NCBI GenBank assembly: GCA_001774395.1
Contig: MEZX01000001.1
Location: forward strand, 27,643-91,642
Origin: Candidatus Berkelbacteria bacterium RIFCSPLOWO2_01_FULL_50_28
GTDB lineage: Bacteria; Patescibacteriota; UBA1384; 2-12-FULL-50-11
Direction: 5' to 3'
DNA length: 64,000 bases
Shown here piece after piece: positions 4,126-19,297 of this stretch; position 1 is the first letter of the stretch; each line of letters opens with the position of its first letter. The notes beneath the pieces were generated by a model, which was not told where the DNA came from, did not search any database, and saw nothing but the letters and a program-made list of their open reading frames with translations. The position numbers and the translations under genes were made by a program.

Positions 4126-4130
4126 TCCTG

Positions 4131-4204
4131 CGCGCCCGGAGGGAATCGAACCCCCGACCCTCTGTTCCGAAGACAGATGCTCTAATCCGCTGAGCTACGG
4201 GCGC
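4131..4204 (-). tRNA. tRNA-Arg (anticodon UCG)
   Basis: Reverse complement folds as acceptor GCGCCCG/CGGGCGC, anticodon stem UCUGU/ACAGA, loop CUUCGGA, T-arm GGGGG-UUCGAUU-CCCUC. Confidence 0.85.
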
Positions 4205-4314: not shown

Positions 4315-5289
4315 CTAGTGGCGGATGATCCTTGGCACGATCTTGCGGTGTTCGTGCAGCGAATCTTGAAGTTTTTCTCTGTCTGGCAAGCCGGCCTCGG
4401 GACCGATTGCACCCACCACGCCAGCCGAGCAAGCGTTGCCCCAACGCATAGCTTCGGTAAGATCTTTGCCGTCCAGTAAGGCCGCCGTAACACCAGAAGC
4501 GTACGCATCACCAGCACCAGTTCGTTCAACAACCTTACTGGGGAATGTTTTGCAAAACAGTAAGTCGCTACCATCAAACGTATAAGCGCCCTTTGGACCG
4601 TCAGTTATCACAACTATCTTTGGCCCCAAGTCGTATAGTGCCTCACAGAGTGACCGAATCTTGGCGCTGGCCGATAACTCTGTTAGATGCTGTGCCTCTT
4701 CCACGTTCACGAACAGTACATCCGTTACGGTCAGGTACGGCATTAACGCTTTCACCCCAGATTTGAGCTGATACGATCCTGGGTTAAAACTAACTTTTGG
4801 ACGATACTTCTTTATAAAGGTAAGGGCCTTGTCGTAAGCTAATTTGTAGGATTTTCCCATACTAGTCAGGTAAACCCAATCAACTGGTTCAAAGTTCGGT
4901 GGATCGTACTGGTGCGGCACGTGGTGAATAAGTAGCGTGCGCTCACCACGAAAAACTAGCGCCGTAGTGTAGGACGTCGTGCCTTTGTAATGTTCGAGGT
5001 AACGCAGGTCGACTCCCTCTTTCTCTAGGGTGTGACGAATTTGGCTGGCCAAAAAATCACTGCCGATAATACTATACAGTTGGCTCGAAAAACCCAGCCG
5101 CGCGAACGAAACCGCGGTGTTGGCGGCGTTGCCGCCGACGTCAAACTCGAGCTGCTCCACGGGAATTTTTTCGGAGAAGTTTAGGCGCAGTTCAGCGTGC
5201 TGATGAGAGAGTGTTACCCTCGCGTCTCCTTCATGGAGCATCACAAACACGTCCATGGTTGCCTCGCCGATTGAAAGGATCTTGCGCAT
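4315..5289 (-). CDS. PfkB/ribokinase-family carbohydrate kinase
   Basis: N-terminal GGNAANTAVSFARLG and C-terminal GAGDAYASGV motifs of PfkB kinases. 324 aa. Confidence 0.8.
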   Translation of the reverse strand: MRKILSIGEATMDVFVMLHEGDARVTLSHQHAELRLNFSEKIPVEQLEFDVGGNAANTAVSFARLGFSSQLYSIIGSDFLASQIRHTLEKEGVDLRYLEHYKGTTSYTTALVFRGERTLLIHHVPHQYDPPNFEPVDWVYLTSMGKSYKLAYDKALTFIKKYRPKVSFNPGSYQLKSGVKALMPYLTVTDVLFVNVEEAQHLTELSASAKIRSLCEALYDLGPKIVVITDGPKGAYTFDGSDLLFCKTFPSKVVERTGAGDAYASGVTAALLDGKDLTEAMRWGNACSAGVVGAIGPEAGLPDREKLQDSLHEHRKIVPRIIRH

Positions 5290-5390
5290 AACTTTATCTT
5301 AACAGACAGCCCAGAGTAATTGAAAAGCGGGGACACTCCATCGCACCTCGTTGTGCAACTTCGTGTTCCCGCTCGGTTCCCTCTGCAAGC

Positions 5391-5879
5391 CTAGTGGGCC
5401 CGCAACCATCTTGGTAGCCATCTGCTACCGATGATCTTGCCCGACAGTCGCCCATCGGGGGCCTCCCACTCAATCACGTCACCAACCGTCCGGCCGATGA
5501 TAGCGGCGAACAACGGCGTATTCCTTGATACGCACGTCACGCCTATAGACTGAGGGGGGCAGCACGGCGCCAGGAGCCTTTCGATGACTTCGGATTTTCC
5601 CCCGAGGGGGTCTTTCACGCGAAGTCTGACGATGTCTCCCAAAACCATGACCTTCTTCGGACGCGGTCGATTCCAGGGCAAGCCCTTCACCCAAGGAACG
5701 AACCTCGTGCCGTCTGCGGCGTCCCAGACCGCAAGGTTGTTGAGTAGCTCCTCCCGTGGGGAGTTGAAAGCTAACTCTTGTTGAATCGCGCTCCGATCGA
5801 CTTCGTTGCTGTCGACCGGTAGTCTTGGCGTCTTTGTCGCCTTTGTTGACAAGCTGGCTATCATCGCCATTGTCGTCAT
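5391..5879 (-). CDS. GreA/GreB C-terminal (FKBP-like) domain protein, Rnk-like
   Basis: The C-terminal region (VSRNTPLFAAIIGRTVGDVIEWEAPDGRLSGKIIG) resembles the GreA C-terminal domain. GC-rich. The N-terminus is unlike GreA. Confidence 0.45.
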   Translation of the reverse strand: MTTMAMIASLSTKATKTPRLPVDSNEVDRSAIQQELAFNSPREELLNNLAVWDAADGTRFVPWVKGLPWNRPRPKKVMVLGDIVRLRVKDPLGGKSEVIERLLAPCCPPQSIGVTCVSRNTPLFAAIIGRTVGDVIEWEAPDGRLSGKIIGSRWLPRWLRAH

Positions 5880-6012
5880 TCCCTATCCTCCATTTTTCCC
5901 GCGCTTCCTGCGCAGGAGTGCGCCAGCTAGAGCTGGAAGATATATTAAAGCATATAAACTGCTCGTTTTCCAGCTTAATCTTTGGGGCTTTCTCTGGTAA
6001 AATAGCAGGTAT

Positions 6013-6086
6013 GGTGGCTATGGTGTAGCGGCAACACGAGAGGTTGTGGTCCTCTAATCATGGGTTCAACTCCCGTTAGCCACCCA
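6013..6086 (+). tRNA. tRNA-His (anticodon GUG) with encoded G-1
   Basis: G-1 precedes acceptor GUGGCUA/UAGCCAC with discriminator C. Anticodon stem AGAGG/CCUCU, loop UUGUGGU. T-arm GGGUUCAACUCCC. Confidence 0.85.
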
Positions 6087-6221
6087 AATTAAGTTTGATT
6101 ACGAGCAAATGGAGTTTGCGAGGAATGCCGGAGCAACGCGACGGATATTCTTCTCAGGTACCCAAAAAAAGAAGCCCGCCCTCATCACAGCTCTGTGAAT
6201 CGGGCGAGCGAAGTAGTCCAG

Positions 6222-7496
6222 CTACGGACAGCCCTCAGCGATCTGGTTGATGATCGAGAGAGCAGCGGCGTTTTTCGAGCGGAGACACTCGAGACGTTCG
6301 CCACCGAGTTGGCCGATAACCGTTTGGAATAGGCTGAAGAGGGCTTCTTCCTCTTCCAGCAGTATCCCAATTGCCTTGCGGGCTTCGGGACGATGAAGCG
6401 GGACGATCCCCGAATCACCTAGCCATCGGTTGTTAAGCGCGCTGCGCACTTTGCGCATGAATGCCAGCCGCTCCAAAGCGTTCCGGAACATTTCCTGCCC
6501 GAGAACGCCGGCAGCAATGCCGTCAGCGGTCAGCTCGAGCTCTTCGAACATCGTCGCTTGACCAGCAACTTCCTCCAGCCAAACGTGCAGGTGCGATTTG
6601 AACTGAGCGACGTTTTTCATCGCCGCCTCACTCGCCGATAAAGCAAGCAGAATGCGATTAATCTCGTCCTCGGTCCGCCTTTCACCATCGGCTTTTGGCT
6701 TCTCGCGAAGCGTCCGTTGAATCATCGTGAGCTCCAACGCACAGCCCCACTTGAATGCCCCCGCTTCCACCGAATGCTGGATGATCCTGGGCAAGTCGCA
6801 GAACTTCAGCGAGTCTCGAACCATATCAGGCTTGATCTGAAGCCGCCTGGCAAACTCACTCACGGTGATCACGGCTCCATCTTCCAGACACTCAAGGTCA
6901 TACAGCCCCTTGATCGCTTTCGCCTGAACTGGGCGAGAGACGCCCTCCCGGTTTAGGTTCTCCTCGAGCTGCAGGCCGACTCCCCTTTGCGGCAGTATGC
7001 CCTGATACATCCGAGCCGGTACACCGTTCGGAAACTGCCGAGCGAAGCACTCTTCGCCAGAAACTTCCCCGTACGCCTGGCGATAGGCTTCGGATCCTTC
7101 CGCTTTCAACAGCAGTAAGCTTCTCATCCTTCGATGACCCGCCACAAGAACGTAGTACTTTCCACCATCATATGGTTTGAAATTCTCGAGCTCGTGGCCT
7201 CCGTCCCCGTTGAAGATCTTCTCCACCAACTGTTTGTACTCGAGAACCATCTTCCGGCTCCAGACACAAACGGTTAACGGAGTCAGTAAGTCGTTGCTAG
7301 CGATACTATCAGCTAGCTCAGGGATACCCTCGTATTCTTCGCCTTCGCAATCGCGAACTTGGCGGAAAATACAGAGCTTGGCAATGTCGACAAATCCCGC
7401 CTCACCGCGAACGATTGTTCCAGCGTTTTGCACGTAGCACCTCCACAATTTAAGGTCCGAACGAAAAAGCACGGCCCCCTTAACTTCTGTATGCAA
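6222..7496 (-). CDS. ParB/Sulfiredoxin-fold (ParB-like nuclease domain) protein, orphan (no ParA partner)
   Basis: YYVLVAGHRRMRSL is the ParB GxRR box within a ParB N-domain-like region. 424-aa ORF. The start is uncertain (an internal Met precedes the domain). Confidence 0.6.
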   Translation of the reverse strand: MHTEVKGAVLFRSDLKLWRCYVQNAGTIVRGEAGFVDIAKLCIFRQVRDCEGEEYEGIPELADSIASNDLLTPLTVCVWSRKMVLEYKQLVEKIFNGDGGHELENFKPYDGGKYYVLVAGHRRMRSLLLLKAEGSEAYRQAYGEVSGEECFARQFPNGVPARMYQGILPQRGVGLQLEENLNREGVSRPVQAKAIKGLYDLECLEDGAVITVSEFARRLQIKPDMVRDSLKFCDLPRIIQHSVEAGAFKWGCALELTMIQRTLREKPKADGERRTEDEINRILLALSASEAAMKNVAQFKSHLHVWLEEVAGQATMFEELELTADGIAAGVLGQEMFRNALERLAFMRKVRSALNNRWLGDSGIVPLHRPEARKAIGILLEEEEALFSLFQTVIGQLGGERLECLRSKNAAALSIINQIAEGCP

Positions 7497-7556
7497 TTAA
7501 TAAAATCACCTGTCAAATTTTGTAAAAATTGTGCCAGCAGGGGTTGCCTGCCGGCA

Positions 7557-8771
7557 CTAAGTTGCCTCCTCCGCCAGTGCGGAAGTGGTTTCGGACGTCT
7601 CGTCCAACACCAGCTCAACGAGCGAAGGGTCAACGTAGCCGTTGAAATACTCCGCGCCGAGTAACTCAATCTGAGTGTCCCTGGCTTCTTGTCGCCTAAT
7701 GGCCCTTGCCTTGACGATCGCGTGCCCACCGAAGTTTCTCGGCTTCGGAACAAAGTCCTTAACCAGAAAGCCGGGGTCACTGTCCGTTAGGTCGGCTAGA
7801 TCAACTGCAGGGTGACTTTCACTCCGCCCCCACTGCATCGAGGCAAGGCGCCCCGAAGCGCTGCCAGTGAGACGTCGCTCCAAACTGTAGTTAGCCGGAA
7901 CAACCCTTTGGCAAACTTCGAAAGCTGGACAGTAAGCCTTGCAATAACGACGAAACTTGACAGCATCATTACGCGGTCGTCGTCGGCAGATAACCGCACC
8001 GATGCGCCACAAGGCCTGACCAACCGCGTGATGCTCGATACCTTCCTCGTAACAGATCTGGCAAAGCGTGTCCGAGATCGGCCCGCTGATGGCGGTGTGA
8101 ATGTCTGTATCCCAGCTGGTTATGTAACCGAACTGGTAAACAAGCCGCATCAACCACAGATCCACCGCAATTGCGGGAATCGTCCGAATGTAGTGCCAAC
8201 GCTCCAAGTCATCCGACCAGTTAACCTCCTGAAACCACTGGATAATCAACTGGGCAATCTTGGGGCCAACGCCAGGCAGATCGTCAAGGCGCCCTATCAG
8301 CTTCTTTCGATCAACGATCGGGTCGGCGCTGTAATCGAGCGTTAGGAAGATGTGGCGCCAATCACCGGCGTAGCGTTCCCTAATTATCTGCAAAGCGTCA
8401 AACCACATTGTGATGGGCTTGTACAAGTTCTCCTTATCCCGGCTGGAGTACGGGATGAACTGATACAGAAAGGTAAACTCAGATCGATCTTGGCTCTTTG
8501 GGTGACGCGGATCGAAGACCCACGGACACTCGGTTGCAAGATGCGAGGCGTACTTGGCCAACATCTCCCCGTCCATGCCGTTTCTTTGCAACCAGCCAGC
8601 AAACCCCAGGAAAAGGGCGTGCTCCAGGCTGCCATAGGCTAATTGTTCAGGGAAATGGAACTGCTCCGGCGGCAGATGGTTAAACGGCGGTTGACGGTTC
8701 AAATACATTGATGCCAGCCGACGAATATCTTTCGCGATTAGATCGCGGTCAAAACCCAGGTTAGCTGGCAT
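7557..8771 (-). CDS. HhH-GPD superfamily DNA glycosylase-like protein with Cys cluster and ~150-aa N-terminal extension
   Basis: LPGVGPKIAQLI (HhH) is followed by TIPAIAVDLWLMRLVYQFGY, matching the EndoIII LPGVGRKTA...TIAVDTHIFRV region. A C-terminal Cys-rich segment is compatible with a 4Fe-4S loop. Confidence 0.55.
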   Translation of the reverse strand: MPANLGFDRDLIAKDIRRLASMYLNRQPPFNHLPPEQFHFPEQLAYGSLEHALFLGFAGWLQRNGMDGEMLAKYASHLATECPWVFDPRHPKSQDRSEFTFLYQFIPYSSRDKENLYKPITMWFDALQIIRERYAGDWRHIFLTLDYSADPIVDRKKLIGRLDDLPGVGPKIAQLIIQWFQEVNWSDDLERWHYIRTIPAIAVDLWLMRLVYQFGYITSWDTDIHTAISGPISDTLCQICYEEGIEHHAVGQALWRIGAVICRRRPRNDAVKFRRYCKAYCPAFEVCQRVVPANYSLERRLTGSASGRLASMQWGRSESHPAVDLADLTDSDPGFLVKDFVPKPRNFGGHAIVKARAIRRQEARDTQIELLGAEYFNGYVDPSLVELVLDETSETTSALAEEAT

Positions 8772-9036
8772 TGTCTTGAACCTCCTTCAAAAGATGTACA
8801 CGGTTTTAGCCGCCCCCGCAGTATACACAGGCAAAACCTGATTGGAAGTCTCTCTCGGCTTGTTGTGACCCTTGACAGACTATGTTCGACTGGTAAACTA
8901 ATACTCGTCTTTCAAAAGGAGGACTATAAAGTCTTCAAAACGATTTATAAGAGACACTGCAAATCAGTTCGGTAAATTTATAGTAAAAAATCTTTCTGCG
9001 GCCCGTAGACAACTCAAACCGCTCAGGGCACTATTT

Positions 9037-9945
9037 TTGAGGTGGGCGCGTCTAATTCTGGGCTTTAAGCCGATGAGCCCCAGTAAATTATTCGATAAAT
9101 ATCGCGTTCAGTTGTGCTACTGCTTGGTACTAATCACTTTCTTGGCAGCCTCTGTGGGTGAAGGCCAGGCCTCGAATATGGAACCGTATAACTTATCTGA
9201 TGAGGTTATTGCCACCAGTGGTTTTATCGGCAAACCCCAGCTCATGGGCGGTCAAACCATTCTTACCGGTGAAATTCAGCAATCAGTAGTTATTGTTTAT
9301 CGCGTTGCCAAAGGCGACACGATATTGGATATCGCCAAACGCTACAACTTGAGTGTTGGCTCGATACTTGATGCAAATCATATGAAAGCCCTCGATGCCG
9401 CAAATATCCAGCCACGACAGAAACTAATCATTCCGGCCGAGGATACCAACACCTCCCTGGCGTGGCTGAAGGAGATCAACAAGGAAAAAGAGCGTCAGGC
9501 AAGGCTAGCCGAGGAAGCGAGACTAGAAGCGCTAGCCTCCCAATACTCCTGGAACGGCGGCGGTTACAGCCAGCCGAGTTACACCACCTACTCCGGTTAC
9601 CAGGTAATCGGCACCGATTGGGGTTCGTACGGCGGGTCCATTCCCGGGCAGTGTACTTCGTACGTCAATAAGATCTTCAACCTACCCAACCTGATGGGCA
9701 ACGGTAACCAGTACCTGGCCAGTGCGCGGGCTTACGGCATGGCAACGGGGTCTGTGCCACGCAACTATTCTATCATTCAAACTAACGAGTCCTGGTACGG
9801 TCACGTTGGCGTAGTCGTTGAGGTGAGTGCCACCACCATTACAATCCAAGATATGAACTACGCCGGAGAGGGTGTGATAACCCGCCGAACGTTATCTGTC
9901 AATGACCCGCGGATTGTTGGCTACGTCTACGCTCCCTTGAATTAA
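9037..9945 (+). CDS. Secreted LysM + CHAP domain peptidoglycan hydrolase
   Basis: N-terminal signal/TM. LysM motif (YRVAKGDTILDIAKRYNLSVGSIL). C-terminal CHAP-like region (GQCTSYVNK ... WYGHVGVVVEV). Confidence 0.7.
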   Translation: MRWARLILGFKPMSPSKLFDKYRVQLCYCLVLITFLAASVGEGQASNMEPYNLSDEVIATSGFIGKPQLMGGQTILTGEIQQSVVIVYRVAKGDTILDIAKRYNLSVGSILDANHMKALDAANIQPRQKLIIPAEDTNTSLAWLKEINKEKERQARLAEEARLEALASQYSWNGGGYSQPSYTTYSGYQVIGTDWGSYGGSIPGQCTSYVNKIFNLPNLMGNGNQYLASARAYGMATGSVPRNYSIIQTNESWYGHVGVVVEVSATTITIQDMNYAGEGVITRRTLSVNDPRIVGYVYAPLN

Positions 9946-15299: not shown

Positions 15300-16126
15300 A
15301 TGAGCAAGGCGAACCATTCCGATTTAACCGCATTCTATCAACACATCTCCGAAATGGGCAGACTGGAGGTTGCCAGGAGGCGAGTCCAGGGAGAAACTAT
15401 CGGTCAGCCGCCGCTGGGGTTTCGAAAGGTCCAGGTGAATGGCAAAACCACCAACGCTCCAGATCCAGAGACCTTCCCTTTGTTGGTGCTGGCCCTCCAG
15501 ATGCGCAAAGAAGGCAGTACGCTCCGTGAGATCTGTTCGGTCATGTCCAAAAAGGGCTTGCAGTCGAAGCGTGGCAATCCGATTCAGCCAAACGGGATGC
15601 ACAAGATCCTCAAAACTTTCATCCGTTTGATTGGAGAAGCTTTTGTGGATACAACTTCTTTTGACAGCATCAGCAGCCAAGCTGAACTTAGCAAAGCAGC
15701 ATGACCAACGAGATGCAAGATTTCAAACGAGCATACTTCGCCCAAACGGGCCGAATGGCTCGGGAAGCAATGGCGGCCAAAGCCCGTAGCGGCATCTACC
15801 CGCTCAAGCTCCCGATTGGTTACAAGCGCGTTTTCGCCGAAGGCGAGGAACGAATCGAGCCCGATCCACAGACAGCCCCGATCATCAAACTCGCCTTTGA
15901 GCTAATCGCTCGCAAACGATCCTCGTTGTCCAAGGTGCTGGCAACTGTCAGAGCCAAGGGACTGAAGGGCCATTCAGGTCAGCCCATCAGCTTAAGCGCC
16001 CTGCATCGGCTCCTGACAAACTCGTTCTACTTTGGAGAGTACAAGTACAACGGGAGTGTCGTGCAAGGGAACTACCGGCCTCTGGTCAACCGAGGTGTTT
16101 GGAATCTTGTCGGCCGCTGCTCTTAG
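15300..16126 (+). pseudogene. Decayed large serine recombinase (two consecutive recombinase-domain fragments, no catalytic resolvase domain)
   Basis: ORFs 15300-15704 and 15701-16126 each carry recombinase-domain-like sequence (GQPPLGF..., LPIGYKRV...YFGEY...G.WNLV). This is similar to the central domain of the intact recombinase at 26728-28314. The N-terminal Ser-catalytic domain and the zinc ribbon are absent. Confidence 0.55.
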
Positions 16127-16227
16127 CGAGAGACGAAGACGGCCCGGATAGCTTCTAGGGTCCATCCCCAGGAATCACAAGGCCGGAAGGTGCGAGAGTC
16201 GTTGGTCGCAAGAATCCGGGTCAGGTT

Positions 16228-17022
16228 CTAGACCCCACCGTCTATCAACAGTGTCTTCCCCATGGTGCCCTTTGGGATTATTCTAATGCGACATCCCAAC
16301 TCTGCTGCGACCATGCGAAGATCTTCAGCTGGTCGACCAATCAACTTCTGCGAAATGCGTTCCCACAGTTCTCGCACATCGTCCGGCGATATTGCCCAAA
16401 TGCGCTGCTGAAGCCCGGCAAACTCAGCGCGAGTTTCGTCGTCACCAAGGATATGCAGATCCCAGAACCAAAGAAGATACGTTGGCAAAGGCCCGAATTT
16501 CTGCTTGCCCCGCTGATGGGACTCGGGGTTCTGTTCCGCGTATTCGATCGCATGCCGGAATCTAGCCATGGCAGCGGGACGGACTGGTGCGTGAAGGCCA
16601 AATTCATCCAACTTCTTGTGCACCTCCAAGTCCAAGACTATTGAGGAGAGACTGTGCCAGAATTCTTTTATTGAGACGGGATCACCAGTCATTCCCTGAA
16701 CATAGTCTACTACGCCAGCGCCATCTGCCGCTTGAAGGTGGTGGATTAGCTCTTCTCCGAGAGCAGCTTGGAACTCTTCGTCAGGCAATTCAGGCTTGAT
16801 CCAAATGGCGATGTACGCGTCAACGTTTGGCTCAGCCAATGCGCTGTGGATCGGATCAACCTCCCTCTGAAGCTCCTGACTTGCGTTGGCATATGGAGCA
16901 ATGCGTAATGTCTTCTTGGGGAATGTCGCCATTACCTCGGAGATTACGGGCAACAGCACATCATTAACTCGGTGCCCTAGAAATTCCATATGACTAAGCA
17001 ACAATGCGCAAGGAGCCGCCAT
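16228..17022 (-). CDS. Hypothetical protein (island cargo, downstream partner of 17041-17787)
   Basis: 264-aa ORF 18 nt downstream of the preceding gene on the same strand. No recognisable motif. Confidence 0.45.
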   Translation of the reverse strand: MAAPCALLLSHMEFLGHRVNDVLLPVISEVMATFPKKTLRIAPYANASQELQREVDPIHSALAEPNVDAYIAIWIKPELPDEEFQAALGEELIHHLQAADGAGVVDYVQGMTGDPVSIKEFWHSLSSIVLDLEVHKKLDEFGLHAPVRPAAMARFRHAIEYAEQNPESHQRGKQKFGPLPTYLLWFWDLHILGDDETRAEFAGLQQRIWAISPDDVRELWERISQKLIGRPAEDLRMVAAELGCRIRIIPKGTMGKTLLIDGGV

Positions 17023-17040
17023 ATCTGCAAAAGGCTCTCA

Positions 17041-17787
17041 TCATGAGTACTGCGTCATTTCATAAGTTAGCGAACCGTATCGGGACAGGTTCTCTTGAAT
17101 TTGTCCAATTAGATGTTCAAGGCCGGGCATATCGGGTTTTACGACACGTTCCCATGTTTCCGTTCCCGGTTGTACTGTGGAGACATGGTTGTCATTCTTA
17201 AACAAGAAGCCACGAGCAAGAACACAAATCAGTTCGGGTCCATAGGTGTAATAGTCATTATTGTACAGTGAGGCCGAACGGCCGATGAACTCAATGATGG
17301 ACTCCCAGGACGGAGCGTCAAATGCGATCACGTAGCAGTTTGCTCGTGTCGGAGGAATCGGAACTCGCTCATCTCCGTGCCCCGCGCGATAGAAACCATG
17401 ATGTGGGGTTTTCTGCAGGTCCTTCGTTCGAGCCACCTTCGCCAAAGCCAATGCCAATCCGCCATCCGGTCCAAGGGAGAGTATGGATTTGCTCTCGATC
17501 AAGCTCGCCGCCTCCACTGGCACCACAGACTCCCCGCCAACCTGGAGACGACCAATTTGGTTGTCAACTAGAACAATGTCAGCCTCGTCCGAAGAGGCAC
17601 CCCTGCTGTCAACTACCTCCCCTTGTTCAACGCCCAGCCGCTGGGGGACATGTTTCTGAAGAAACTCTTTGATAAGCTCTTCTCGCGCCCGCCCTTTTGA
17701 AAGAGGTGCTGTTAGGATGCCAGCCGCTTTCGCTTGACTCAGCATGGCTTGTTCCAGGTGAACATAGTATTCACGCTGACTTGTCAT
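17041..17787 (-). CDS. Hypothetical protein with PD-(D/E)xK-like nuclease signature
   Basis: GEVVDSRGASSDEADIVLVDN ... EAASLIESKS gives a D...D...ExK arrangement typical of restriction-endonuclease-fold proteins. Start set at MTSQREYY; the upstream extension is Cys-rich and may not be translated. Confidence 0.4.
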   Translation of the reverse strand: MTSQREYYVHLEQAMLSQAKAAGILTAPLSKGRAREELIKEFLQKHVPQRLGVEQGEVVDSRGASSDEADIVLVDNQIGRLQVGGESVVPVEAASLIESKSILSLGPDGGLALALAKVARTKDLQKTPHHGFYRAGHGDERVPIPPTRANCYVIAFDAPSWESIIEFIGRSASLYNNDYYTYGPELICVLARGFLFKNDNHVSTVQPGTETWERVVKPDMPGLEHLIGQIQENLSRYGSLTYEMTQYS

Positions 17788-17958
17788 TTCAAACCTCAAA
17801 CCCACGGAAACGCAGTCTGCTTTGCATTGGGGCCCATTATACCAATCAAACCTGAAGAGACAACTGTTGCATATTCCAACGAATTCGAACGCCTGTTCCA
17901 ACTGAAGTCGAACGCGCATTCCAACTGAAATCGAACGCTTTGAGCACCGTCGTTGGGA

Positions 17959-19297
17959 TCATCGGTCTTCAGGCCTTCGTTGTCTGGTCGAGCTTACCGG
18001 TTGGGTCCTTGTCGAGCCCTTGCTTTTGCGCAGGGATTCGCCTTGGATCTCGAGCCGGTAGGCGTAGTGGACGAGTCGGTCGAGTGTGGCGTCGGCCAGG
18101 GTCGGATCTCCGATGGCCTCGTGCCAGTGCTCAAGCGGGAGTTGCGCGCAGATCATGGTGGACCTGCGGTCGTACCGGTCGTCGAGGATCTCGAGCAGAT
18201 CGCGCCGGTGGACGTCCGAGAGGGGCGCGACGAGCCAGTCGTCGAGGATGAGCAGATCGATCCTGGCGAGGGAGGCGAGCCGGTTGCGGTACGTGCCGTC
18301 GCCCCGACCAATCTCCAGATCGTGCAGGAGCCTGGGAGCTCTGAAGTAGCGGGTGTCCGGAATGGATCGGAATGGGTGTCCGCTTTGAATTGGAATCACT
18401 GTCCGCTTTGCGTCGGAACGCGCAGCCCGCAACCCAGTCTCAACCTGATGACTTCTCTGATCTTGCGCACGGACAGCTTCTCCTGTCCATCCCGACCACC
18501 TCGTTTCAATTGTGAGAGGCCAAGGATCGCCGATGCGGAGTAGGGCATCGGGCGCCGGGCGAGGATCCCGGAGCATGCCGATCGCTCATTCCGGGGCAGA
18601 ACCGAGAAACGATCGACATGGCCCGGAACATGCGATCGCTTTGGGCCGCTGAATGCAAGCGTTCGTGAATAATAGGAGTGCAATGCCTTTTCTGTCTTCC
18701 TCTCCAGCACTCTTGCCGGAGAAAGGACTGCGCTCAAAACGAGGCAAAAATGTGTTACCTATGTAGAAATCCATGACAACAGCTTGACGCCATGCTCCTT
18801 CAAGCATAGAATGGGTGTGTCGGCGCCGGTTGAAAAGTGCACCGCTGTGCTGGCCCAATAGTGCACCACGCGCGCACGCAGTGTACGCCGGTTTCCCATC
18901 CGGATGAGATTGCGCGAGCAATCTGGGAATCGGGGGCGAGCGAAGCGATGCCCCCTTCCGTGCCTCAGGCCCTGGTTTTGGGGTTGTCTCTCGCCTTGGC
19001 CAGACTGTACGCGAGCCGGTAGCTCTGCCCGTTCATCTCGAGGATGTGCACGTGGTGCGTGAGCCGGTCGAGCATCGCGTGCACGAGGGCTTCGGAGGCG
19101 AGCACCGAGATCCACTCCTCGAAGGGCAGGTTCGTCGTAAGGACGATCGAGCCCCGCTCGTAGCGGTCGGAGACGACGTCGAAGAGGAGTTCGGCCCCGC
19201 TTGCCGGAAGCGGCACGAACCCGAGCTCGTCGAGGACCAGGAGGTCGACCTTCCGCAGAAGGGCGCGCGTGCGGCCATGGGTGGTAGATGAAAGCAC
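17959..19297 (-). mobile_element. IS21-family insertion sequence remnants (two IstB C-terminal fragments flanking an IstA N-terminal fragment)
   Basis: ORF 17959-18576 (RIDLLILDDWLV ... DRLVHYAYRLEIQGESLR) and ORF 18965-19297 (VDLLVLDELGFVP ... DRLTHHVHILEMNGQSYR) are both IstB helper-ATPase C-terminal halves. ORF 18396-18737 carries an IstA-like N-terminal HTH (KIREVIRLRLGCGL). All are truncated. GC is very high. Confidence 0.6.

What the first reader, a model, noticed from the sequence alone, without database searches (positions are those of the whole stretch)
5300..8800. GC-rich islet around tRNA-His encoding a ParB/Srx-fold protein, an extended HhH-GPD Fe-S glycosylase-like protein and a GreA-C-domain protein
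This ~3.5-kb stretch is visibly GC-richer than its flanks and sits between tRNA-Arg(UCG) and the LysM-CHAP gene, with tRNA-His embedded in it. The two large minus-strand genes combine a ParB-like nuclease domain (GHRR box, no ParA partner) with an HhH-GPD glycosylase-like protein. That protein keeps the helix-hairpin-helix, the catalytic-Asp region (IAVDLW) and a Cys cluster, but adds a ~150-aa N-terminal domain of unknown function. Orphan ParB/Srx-fold proteins recur in DNA-modification and phage-defence contexts, and a glycosylase partner would fit a system that recognises or excises modified bases. The pairing is not one I can assign to a named system.
Basis: partly seen in the sequence, partly recalled or inferred. 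Interest (0 to 1): 0.55.

Follow-up and report, generated by a model that had tools for sequence, protein, structure and literature searches.

The report
Conserved ParB-like and EndoIII-like gene pair
Two neighbouring genes in a Candidatus Berkelbacteria genome encode a very divergent endonuclease-III-type DNA glycosylase and an orphan ParB-type DNA-binding switch protein; they stay adjacent across distant relatives, which suggests an undescribed DNA-repair or base-excision module, not a foreign island or a known defence system.

Summary
The "GC-rich foreign islet" idea fails. GC is 0.544 against 0.505±0.028, and 15% of equal-sized windows are as rich. Tetranucleotide use is ordinary, there are no att repeats, and the same tRNAs and housekeeping genes flank the pair in relatives.

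The 403-aa protein resembles ParB/Spo0J/Noc: ParB/Srx NTPase fold with boxes I-III, plus an HTH (hhalign 95.7% to Spo0J). There is no ParA nearby.

The two genes are adjacent in 7 lineages at 25-55% identity, in both gene orders and with different flanks. A terminator hairpin lies between them. More distant relatives of either protein occur alone. The 162-aa GreA-C-like gene is not part of the module.

Best reading (inferred, about 0.45): the ParB-fold protein acts as an NTP-gated DNA clamp that targets or activates the glycosylase. There is no support for a defence or DNA-modification role.

The parts
7557..8771 (-). 404-aa EndoIII-like HhH-GPD Fe-S glycosylase-like protein (NCBI A3A71_03210, annotated hypothetical). 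It is a member of an unnamed family whose named or placed members are all Patescibacteria.
8226..8303 (-). Helix-hairpin-helix, residues 157-182 (LPGVGPKIAQL). It includes Lys171 (8259-8261), which aligns with the Schiff-base Lys120 of E. coli Nth.
   Evidence: Weak Pfam HhH hits at residues 157-182. G167 is conserved in 111/117 and K171 in 106/117 family members. Aligned to GIGRK/GVGRK of EndoIII.
8160..8162 (-). Asp204 in IAVDLW, the counterpart of the catalytic Asp138 of Nth (xVDTH motif).
   Evidence: Invariant in 117/117. Aligned to the VDTH Asp of EndoIII.
7911..7988 (-). Four-cysteine Fe-S-type cluster, C262-X14-C277-X3-C281-X5-C287.
   Evidence: Conserved in 106, 92, 115 and 114 of 117 members.
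7560..7904 (-). C-terminal tail of about 115 aa, predicted disordered. Most orthologues (316-345 aa) lack it.
   Evidence: pLDDT <50 for residues 290-404. Alignment A1.
7531..7557 (-). Intrinsic-terminator-like hairpin (11-bp stem plus U-run) directly after the glycosylase-like gene.
   Evidence: Terminator scan. Folding energy -21.9 kcal/mol, z -5.0. Equivalent hairpins after the first gene in L002, L003, L006 and L001.
7511..7518 (-). ATTTGACA motif (-35-like) just after the hairpin. It may be the ParB-like gene's own promoter (inference).
   Evidence: The same ATTTGACA follows the hairpin in L002, L003 and L006. The promoter scan called no full sigma-70 match here.
6222..7433 (-). 403-aa orphan ParB/Spo0J/Noc-like protein (A3A71_03205): ParB/Srx NTPase-fold domain, HTH domain and a long helical C-terminal half.
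7350..7367 (-). Box I-like FRQVRD (Q25 and R27 invariant).
   Evidence: Alignments A3/A6. The R aligns to Spo0J.
7128..7139 (-). Box II, GHRR (residues 99-102), the counterpart of GERR in ParB.
   Evidence: G99 and R102 are invariant. Aligned to VAGERR of Spo0J and Noc.
6957..6971 (-). Box III, QLEEN (residues 155-159), the counterpart of ENLQR in ParB.
   Evidence: Q155, E158 and N159 are invariant. Aligned to LVENLQRE of Spo0J.
6699..6878 (-). ParB-type helix-turn-helix DNA-binding region (about residues 186-245).
   Evidence: Aligned to the HTH of Spo0J, Noc and ParB. Weak Pfam HTH_ParB hits in orthologues P0012 and the L014 protein.
6014..6085 (+). tRNA-His(GTG). This is context only, not an island border.
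   Evidence: ARAGORN and Rfam. tRNA-His also lies near the pair in L002, L009, L010 and L012. No att-like repeat.
5391..5879 (-). 162-aa protein with a GreA/Gfh1 C-terminal-like domain (residues 76-150). It is a neighbour, not part of the conserved module.
   Evidence: Pfam GreA_GreB 24.7 bits, below the 26.9 cut-off. Gfh1 E about 0.01. No homologue in any related locus.

Best explanation
This is a vertically inherited two-gene module of Patescibacteria (CPR bacteria). Gene 1 encodes a very divergent endonuclease-III-type HhH-GPD protein that probably binds a [4Fe-4S] cluster. It keeps the Asp and Lys that make Nth a bifunctional glycosylase/AP-lyase, so it most likely flips a damaged or unusual base out of DNA and excises it. 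Gene 2 encodes an orphan ParB/Noc-type protein. It has an NTP-binding ParB/Srx domain with boxes I-III, a ParB-type HTH, a helical C-terminal half and no ParA partner.

The proposed mechanism is inferred, not shown. The ParB-like dimer binds DNA through its HTH and closes on it as an NTP-gated clamp. It then recruits, positions or activates the glycosylase on double-stranded DNA. Two precedents exist: phage ParB176 activates its thymine dioxygenase on dsDNA, and the ParB-fold ATPase DpdB enables the DpdA transglycosylase.

The two genes are separate transcription units, with a terminator hairpin and a conserved ATTTGACA motif between them, so their dosage can differ.

Shown here: folds, motifs, family membership at superfamily level, conserved adjacency and non-island status. 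Inferred: enzymatic activity, NTP dependence, physical interaction and substrate.
For: Glycosylase-like protein:
- The family profile hits EndoIII at E 2.3e-5, aligning GxGxK and PVDxHxxR.
- Asp204 is conserved in 117/117, Lys171 in 106/117 and the four Cys in 92-115/117.
- The only viral fold match is an EndoIII.

ParB-like protein:
- The profile hits Spo0J, Noc and ParB.
- hhalign gives 95.7% over the NTPase and HTH domains.
- Box I, II and III residues are invariant.

Linkage:
- The genes are adjacent in the window, the L002 group, L003 and L012 (glycosylase gene first), and in L001, L014 and L022 (ParB-like gene first). Identities go down to about 25-33% and the flanking genes differ.
- Normalised similarity of the two proteins co-varies across the 21 lineage pairs (Spearman 0.72).

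Precedents for ParB-fold NTPases assisting base-flipping DNA enzymes: PMC13229309 and PMC10164549.
Against: - No operon. A strong terminator-like hairpin separates the genes in every locus examined.
- The pairing is not universal. More distant family members have no ParB-like neighbour (L015, L016; L021 within a 4.3-kb contig). A distant ParB-like gene (L019/L020) has no glycosylase neighbour.
- No fusion of the two domains was found among 160 collected proteins.
- The co-variation in similarity is what any two vertically inherited genes would show.
- No parS-like site was found.
- No interaction prediction could be run.
- Both AF2 models have only moderate confidence (pLDDT about 64) and rest on shallow alignments.
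Confidence: 0.45

Rival explanations
1. The ParB-like protein is a KorB/VirB/BisD-style NTP-dependent transcription regulator. Its conserved target is the neighbouring glycosylase gene or other nearby genes. Adjacency would then reflect a regulator-target pairing, not a protein complex.
For: The protein has an HTH plus the ParB NTPase fold and no ParA. The genes are separate transcription units with a conserved ATTTGACA motif ahead of the ParB-like gene. ParB-fold regulators are documented: KorB in PMC11790492 and BisD in PMC12409273.
Against: No conserved operator-like palindrome was found in the upstream or intergenic regions. Adjacency survives a swap of gene order, which moves the promoters relative to each other.
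Confidence: 0.2
2. The two are unrelated housekeeping genes: a lineage-specific BER glycosylase and a lineage-specific nucleoid or segregation ParB. They sit together only through inherited synteny.
For: The neighbourhood is housekeeping and partly syntenic: PfkB, BipA, DEAD helicase, DUF5665, VTT and the same three tRNAs. A terminator lies between the genes. Each family also occurs without the other.
Against: Adjacency persists at 25-33% identity across seven lineages, although the flanks are completely different (L001, L003, L014) and the order is inverted. In the sampled loci no other neighbour is retained that far.
Confidence: 0.2
3. This is the first reader's idea: a DNA-modification or anti-phage module on a foreign islet, in which the ParB/Srx protein and the HhH-GPD-fold enzyme recognise, install or excise modified bases. 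Models would be the Dnd/Ssp/Dpd systems or the phage thymidine-hypermodification clusters that combine ParB with HhH-GPD-fold amino-acid:DNA transferases.
Against: - No PADLOC hit.
- No dioxygenase, kinase, TGT, methyltransferase or nuclease partner within ±10 kb.
- No relatives in IMG/VR, GenBank phages or PLSDB plasmids.
- Ordinary composition and no att repeats.
- Conserved chromosomal synteny.
Confidence: 0.1

Closest known systems
Endonuclease III (Nth) and related Fe-S HhH-GPD glycosylases (MutY, MIG, DME/ROS1)
   Different: - It fails the Pfam HhH-GPD and all NCBIfam thresholds.
- It is about 80-90 residues longer in the ordered part.
- It has a Trp-rich 15-aa insert (WFQEVxW...W) between the Lys and the Asp, and Trp replaces the His of VDTH in this subfamily.
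- The Cys spacing is C-X14-C-X3-C-X5-C instead of C-X6-C-X2-C-X5-C.
- It has a disordered 115-aa tail.
- It is coupled to a ParB-like gene.
QNG1/DUF2419 queuosine-salvage hydrolase and archaeal AGOG
   Different: The window protein itself hits neither Pfam model. From general knowledge, QNG1 and AGOG are not Fe-S proteins; this was not tested here. Sequence identity is 12-13%.
Chromosomal ParB/Spo0J and Noc (ParB-CTPase DNA clamps)
   Different: - No ParA partner and no recognisable N-terminal ParA-activating peptide.
- GHRR replaces GERR.
- There are two insertions in the NTPase domain, about residues 59-94 and 113-143.
- The C-terminal half is about 150 aa of long helices, not the small ParB dimerisation domain.
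- It fails Pfam ParBc.
- No parS was found.
ParB176-5mYOX176 (phage thymine dioxygenase with ParB activator) and DpdB-DpdA (7-deazaguanine insertion)
   Same: In both, a ParB-fold NTPase-type protein is encoded next to, and required by, an enzyme that must flip a base out of dsDNA (PMC13229309; PMC10164549). This is the functional analogy behind the proposed mechanism.
   Different: The partner enzyme here is an EndoIII-type glycosylase, not a dioxygenase or a TGT-like transglycosylase. The 5mYOX-associated ParBs lack an obvious DNA-binding domain, whereas this protein keeps the HTH. Those systems are phage or defence-island borne; this pair is chromosomal and syntenic. No sequence relationship to those proteins was tested here.

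Membership tests
HhH-GPD superfamily (EndoIII-like) | Two-domain all-helical HhH-GPD fold | tested here: met
HhH-GPD superfamily (EndoIII-like) | HhH hairpin followed by a conserved catalytic Asp about 20 residues downstream | tested here: met
   LPGVGPK at residues 165-171. Asp204 is invariant in 117/117 and aligns to the VDTH Asp. The spacing is 33 residues instead of 18 because of an insert.
HhH-GPD superfamily (EndoIII-like) | Passes the curated Pfam PF00730 or an NCBIfam Nth/MutY model | tested here: not met
   No PF00730 hit at E<=1 and no NCBIfam hit. Only 2 of 117 relatives touch PF00730, at E about 0.007.
Bifunctional Nth-type glycosylase/AP lyase | Lys in the HhH (Nth K120) acting as Schiff-base nucleophile | tested here: met
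   K171 is conserved in 106/117 and aligns with the K of GVGRK. Whether it is catalytic cannot be tested here.
Bifunctional Nth-type glycosylase/AP lyase | [4Fe-4S] cluster ligated by C-X6-C-X2-C-X5-C | tested here: inconclusive
   Four conserved Cys align to the Nth ligands, but the spacing is C-X14-C-X3-C-X5-C (some relatives have X7/X2/X5). Metal content is not testable here.
Bifunctional Nth-type glycosylase/AP lyase | Base-excision activity on DNA | not testable with these tools
   Requires biochemistry.
ParB/Spo0J/Noc/KorB (ParB-CTPase clamps) | ParB/Srx N-terminal fold with box II GxxR | tested here: met
ParB/Spo0J/Noc/KorB (ParB-CTPase clamps) | Box I and box III nucleotide-binding and hydrolysis motifs | tested here: met
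   Q25/R27 and Q155/E158/N159 are invariant in the family and align to the Spo0J motifs.
ParB/Spo0J/Noc/KorB (ParB-CTPase clamps) | Central ParB-type HTH DNA-binding domain | tested here: met
   The best-scoring profile segment covers the Spo0J HTH. hhalign covers residues 30-284. Weak HTH_ParB Pfam hits in two orthologues.
ParB/Spo0J/Noc/KorB (ParB-CTPase clamps) | Passes the Pfam ParBc or NCBIfam ParB thresholds | tested here: not met
   No Pfam hit. TIGR00180 scores 21.5 bits against a cut-off of 58.45.
ParABS partition system | Adjacent ParA ATPase | tested here: not met
   No ParA-type gene within ±10 kb.
ParABS partition system | parS-type palindromic loading sites near the gene | tested here: inconclusive
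   No shared palindrome in the window or in the related loci. Divergent or distant sites cannot be excluded.
ParB/Spo0J/Noc/KorB (ParB-CTPase clamps) | NTP binding, hydrolysis and clamp closure | not testable with these tools
Genomic island at a tRNA | Compositional deviation, att direct repeats of the tRNA 3' end, an integrase, and absence from relatives | tested here: not met
   GC and tetranucleotide use lie within the window's spread. The only tRNA-related repeat is shared between two complete tRNA-Arg genes. No integrase lies in 3-11 kb. The pair and the tRNAs are syntenic in relatives.
Known anti-phage defence systems (PADLOC) / Dpd / 5mYOX hypermodification clusters | Signature proteins (PADLOC models; a DpdA TGT-like enzyme; a 5mYOX dioxygenase with kinase and AADT) | tested here: not met
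   No PADLOC hit for any of the three proteins. Neighbours have no such Pfam domains. No phage or plasmid relatives.
GreA/GreB (162-aa neighbour) | N-terminal coiled coil plus C-terminal FKBP-like domain passing the Pfam threshold | tested here: not met
   Only a C-terminal-domain match at 24.7 bits, below 26.9. Gfh1 E about 0.01 over residues 76-150. No hit for the N-terminal domain.

The most novel reading that the evidence does not exclude
A ParB-fold NTP-gated DNA clamp serves as the loader, targeting factor or activator of an endonuclease-III-type Fe-S glycosylase. That would be a further case of ParB-like NTPases assisting base-flipping DNA enzymes, after DpdB-DpdA and ParB-5mYOX. Unlike those phage or defence-island systems, this pair sits in a conserved chromosomal, non-defence setting, in CPR bacteria. 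It would give the ParB-CTPase fold a role in base excision, whether repair or site-directed base removal.
Probability: 0.3. Interest if true: 0.7.

Novelty: new variant of a known kind. Interest (0 to 1): 0.5.

Why it matters
Both proteins are annotated as hypothetical and escape Pfam, NCBIfam, PHROGs and PADLOC.

The glycosylase-like protein defines an unnamed, sizeable branch of the HhH-GPD superfamily: 438 representative clusters, with every named or placed member in Patescibacteria.

The main text of the 2025 survey of the ParB-CTPase fold (PMC12704722) does not contain the words glycosylase, HhH or Patescibacteria. A full-text search for 'ParB-like' together with 'HhH-GPD' returned no paper. 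So the pairing appears to be undescribed.

If the two proteins work together, the emerging theme that ParB-fold NTPases are accessory factors for enzymes that act on bases within dsDNA would extend to base excision.

The practical lesson for the scan is that this is not a foreign island or a defence locus.

Tried and rejected
1. Foreign GC islet. Rejected on GC rank, tetranucleotide distance, lack of att repeats and conserved synteny. The real compositional outlier in the first 20 kb is the IS21/recombinase region at about 15.7-18.6 kb.
2. Direct single-sequence searches of both proteins (Pfam, NCBIfam, PADLOC, PHROGs, PDB). These gave essentially nothing. Only family profiles and structure models gave assignments.
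3. The word-indexed homologue search made both families look tiny, at 7 and 4-5 clusters. The exhaustive HMMER search showed 438 representatives for the glycosylase-like family.
4. The search for related loci with the broad alignments A4 and A5 failed because no conserved stretch was available. With A1 and A7 it returned only close relatives.
5. Search for a parS-like site or operator: inverted repeats, perfect 14-16-bp palindromes in the window and in 10 loci. No shared site was found. TGTTTTGCAAAACA at 4546-4559 is a single occurrence and not significant.
6. Rosetta-stone fusions. No ParB-like domain is present in any of the 160 collected proteins, and the long family members have no informative Pfam domains.
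7. Search for a C-terminal motif or a Trp-signature that tracks pairing. Neither correlates cleanly with the presence of a ParB-like neighbour.
8. Phage, plasmid and viral relatives. None were found. The only BFVD fold match is a haloviral EndoIII.
10. The 162-aa gene as a third component. Rejected because it has no counterpart near the pair elsewhere.

Full report
**Source and layout**

The window comes from Candidatus Berkelbacteria bacterium RIFCSPLOWO2_01_FULL_50_28, a CPR/Patescibacteria MAG. Both large proteins match its records A3A71_03210 and A3A71_03205 exactly; both are annotated as hypothetical.

The minus strand carries these genes:
- a 404-aa gene at 7557-8771;
- a 424-aa ORF at 6222-7496, whose real start is the GTG at 7433 behind a GGAGG (403 aa);
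- a 162-aa gene at 5391-5879;
- a PfkB kinase gene at 4315-5289.

tRNA-His(GTG) lies on the plus strand at 6014-6085 and tRNA-Arg(TCG) at 4130-4204. A LysM-CHAP gene is at 9037-9945.

**Composition and island status**

- The stretch 5300-8800 has GC 0.544. The window as a whole is 0.505, and 3.5-kb windows have sd 0.028.
- 15% of equal-sized windows are at least as GC-rich, and 18-28 kb reaches 0.55-0.59.
- The strand-symmetrised tetranucleotide distance to the window is 0.195 against a mean of 0.188; 28% of windows are at least as distant.
- The only tRNA-related direct repeat is the shared 5' part of two complete tRNA-Arg genes.
- No integrase lies in 3-11 kb.
- In related genomes the same tRNA-His(gtg), tRNA-Arg(tcg) and tRNA-Lys(ctt), together with PfkB, DUF5665 and VTT-domain genes, lie around the orthologous pair.
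- In two of those lineages (L002, L012) a DEAD-box helicase gene and a BipA gene also lie upstream.

This is a conserved chromosomal neighbourhood, not a foreign islet. The true compositional outlier nearby is the IS21/recombinase/DUF6602 block at about 15.7-18.6 kb.

**The 404-aa protein**

Searched alone, it matches nothing useful. Pfam gives only sub-threshold HhH motifs at residues 157-182. NCBIfam, PADLOC and PDB sequences give nothing.

The word-indexed search found 7 clusters. An exhaustive HMMER profile search found 438 representatives at E<=1e-3, 61 of them at E<=1e-30. Most of the best 150 are about 250-400 aa and match over most of the profile. The named members are Patescibacteria group and Candidatus Lloydbacteria MAGs, all labelled hypothetical.

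In a 117-sequence alignment Asp204 is invariant. D137, G167, K171, W255, C262, C281 and C287 are at least 90% conserved. The consensus reads FxGxGxKI ... PVDxHxxR ... C ... CxxxCPxxxxC.

That family profile hits PDB endonuclease III at E 2.3e-5. It aligns GIGPK with GIGRK and PaiPVDiHvmR with PAIPVDTHVHR. Six of the 117 members weakly match Pfam AGOG and two match HhH-GPD.

The conclusions for this protein are:
- It is a divergent EndoIII-like, probably Fe-S, glycosylase/lyase-type protein in a family of its own. It is not a housekeeping Nth or MutY orthologue.
Most of it is the normal helical region that precedes the HhH.
- The extra length sits in an N-terminal extension, a 15-aa Trp-rich insert between the Lys and the Asp (WFQEVxW...W, specific to the closer subfamily, which also has VDxW instead of VDxH), and a disordered tail.

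**The 403-aa protein**

- No Pfam hit. TIGR00180 scores 21.5 bits against a cut-off of 58.45.
- The family profile hits T. thermophilus Spo0J at E 2e-5, and also Noc and ParB chains. It aligns the box I region, VAGERR with VAGHRR, ENLQREDLS with LEENxNRxxVS, and the HTH.
- hhalign against B. subtilis Spo0J gives probability 95.7%, E 1e-8, 175 columns and 30% identity. It covers residues 30-284 and shows two insertions in the NTPase domain.
- In the eight-sequence family alignment Q25, R27, G99, R102, Q155, E158 and N159 are invariant.

So this is a ParB/Noc/KorB-type protein with an NTPase fold and an HTH, not merely a "ParB-like nuclease domain". No ParA gene lies within ±10 kb. Nucleotide specificity cannot be inferred from sequence (PMC12704722).

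**Is the pairing conserved?**

Yes, for the closer subfamily.
- The glycosylase-like gene is followed by the ParB-like gene in the window, in the L002/L006/L009/L010 group, in L003 and in L012/L013.
- The order is reversed in L001 (=L011=L018), L014 and L022.
- Across these seven lineages the glycosylase-like proteins are 31-55% identical and the ParB-like proteins 24-53%.
- The flanks differ completely: UvrB/UvrA and a heliorhodopsin gene in L001, DnaG in L003, and G3P acyltransferase and RNase Y in L014.
- Normalised similarities of the two families co-vary (Spearman 0.72 over 21 comparisons). That is also expected for any two co-inherited genes.

The pairing dissolves further out.
- L015 has two tandem glycosylase-like paralogues and no ParB-like gene within ±5 kb.
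- L016 has a radical-SAM neighbour.
- L021, a 4.3-kb contig, has a distant paralogue on the opposite strand.
- A distant ParB-like gene in L019/L020 has no glycosylase-like neighbour.
- No fusion protein was seen.

In every paired locus examined, the first gene is followed by a stable GC-rich hairpin and a U-run (-14 to -22 kcal/mol; z -2.7 to -7.3). In four loci an ATTTGACA motif comes next. The genes therefore look like separate transcription units that are nevertheless kept adjacent.

**The 162-aa gene**

Residues 76-150 resemble the GreA/Gfh1 C-terminal domain: Pfam 24.7 bits against a cut-off of 26.9, and Gfh1 at E about 0.01. It has no homologue in any related locus and is not part of the module.

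**Mechanism**

Shown here: two folds, retained catalytic and nucleotide-binding motifs, deep conservation of adjacency, and chromosomal, non-mobile status.

Inferred: the glycosylase-like protein excises bases by the Nth mechanism (Asp-assisted, with a Lys Schiff base). The ParB-like protein binds DNA via its HTH and closes as an NTP-gated clamp. The clamp then recruits or activates the glycosylase on dsDNA.

The analogy rests on two experimentally characterised cases. Phage ParB176 is required by its thymine dioxygenase only on dsDNA (PMC13229309). The ParB-fold ATPase DpdB is required for DpdA-catalysed base exchange (PMC10164549).

Rivals:
- a KorB/BisD-like regulator of the neighbouring gene (0.2);
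- unrelated housekeeping genes held together by synteny (0.2);
- a modification or defence module (0.1). This one is disfavoured by the absence of PADLOC hits and of partner enzymes, by the lack of phage, plasmid or viral relatives, and by the closeness to EndoIII rather than to phage amino-acid:DNA transferases.

**Novelty**

Both superfamilies are well known. The specific glycosylase-like family is unnamed. I found no description of its association with a ParB-fold protein. No paper in the library holds both 'ParB-like' and 'HhH-GPD'. The main text of the 2025 ParB-CTPase survey has no mention of glycosylases, HhH or Patescibacteria. I rate it a new variant of a known kind and of moderate interest. 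The function remains an inference from genomic context.

Noticed in passing
window 15700-18600: A block of IstB_IS21, DUF6602 and a recombinase fragment, with a GIY-YIG gene at about 14.8-15.0 kb next to it. It has the highest GC (0.57-0.59) and the largest tetranucleotide deviation in the window (L1 0.27-0.31 against a mean of 0.19). This, not 5300-8800, is the likely foreign or mobile DNA.
   Followed up: partly
L019 3547-3562 and 3843-3858: Two near-identical 16-bp palindromes, ATGTTCTTAAGAACAT and ATGTTCTCAAGAACAT, lie 1.1-1.4 kb upstream of a distant, unpaired ParB-like gene (4980-6077) on a 510-kb metagenome contig. They are candidate parS-like sites for that relative.
   Followed up: no
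L015 5001-5942 and 6030-7016; L021 1186-2184 and 2285-3472(-): The glycosylase-like family occurs as tandem or adjacent paralogues in some Patescibacteria, without a ParB-like neighbour. This suggests diversification of substrate specificity.
   Followed up: partly
window 7531-7557 (-) and equivalents in L001, L002, L003, L006: A strong terminator-like hairpin lies between the two genes in every lineage examined. The sequence differs but the structure is the same. In four loci a conserved ATTTGACA follows. Adjacency is kept without obvious co-transcription.
   Followed up: yes
L001 11720-16511; L004 134-709; L003 3652-5427: DNA-metabolism genes lie close to the pair in some lineages: UvrB and UvrA (L001), a Tag-type 3-methyladenine glycosylase (L004) and DnaG primase (L003).
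   Followed up: no
window 4546-4559: A perfect 14-bp palindrome, TGTTTTGCAAAACA, lies inside the PfkB gene. From memory, its outer arms resemble those of canonical parS. It is a single copy: 26 of 100 shuffles give at least one match at up to 2 mismatches, so it is not significant.
   Followed up: yes
window 5391-5879: The 162-aa GreA-C-like gene has the highest GC of the local genes (0.58). It has no counterpart in the related loci, so it may be a lineage-specific acquisition.
   Followed up: partly
L001 2023-2799: A heliorhodopsin gene (PF18761) lies in the Patescibacteria contig that carries the most distant paired locus.
   Followed up: no
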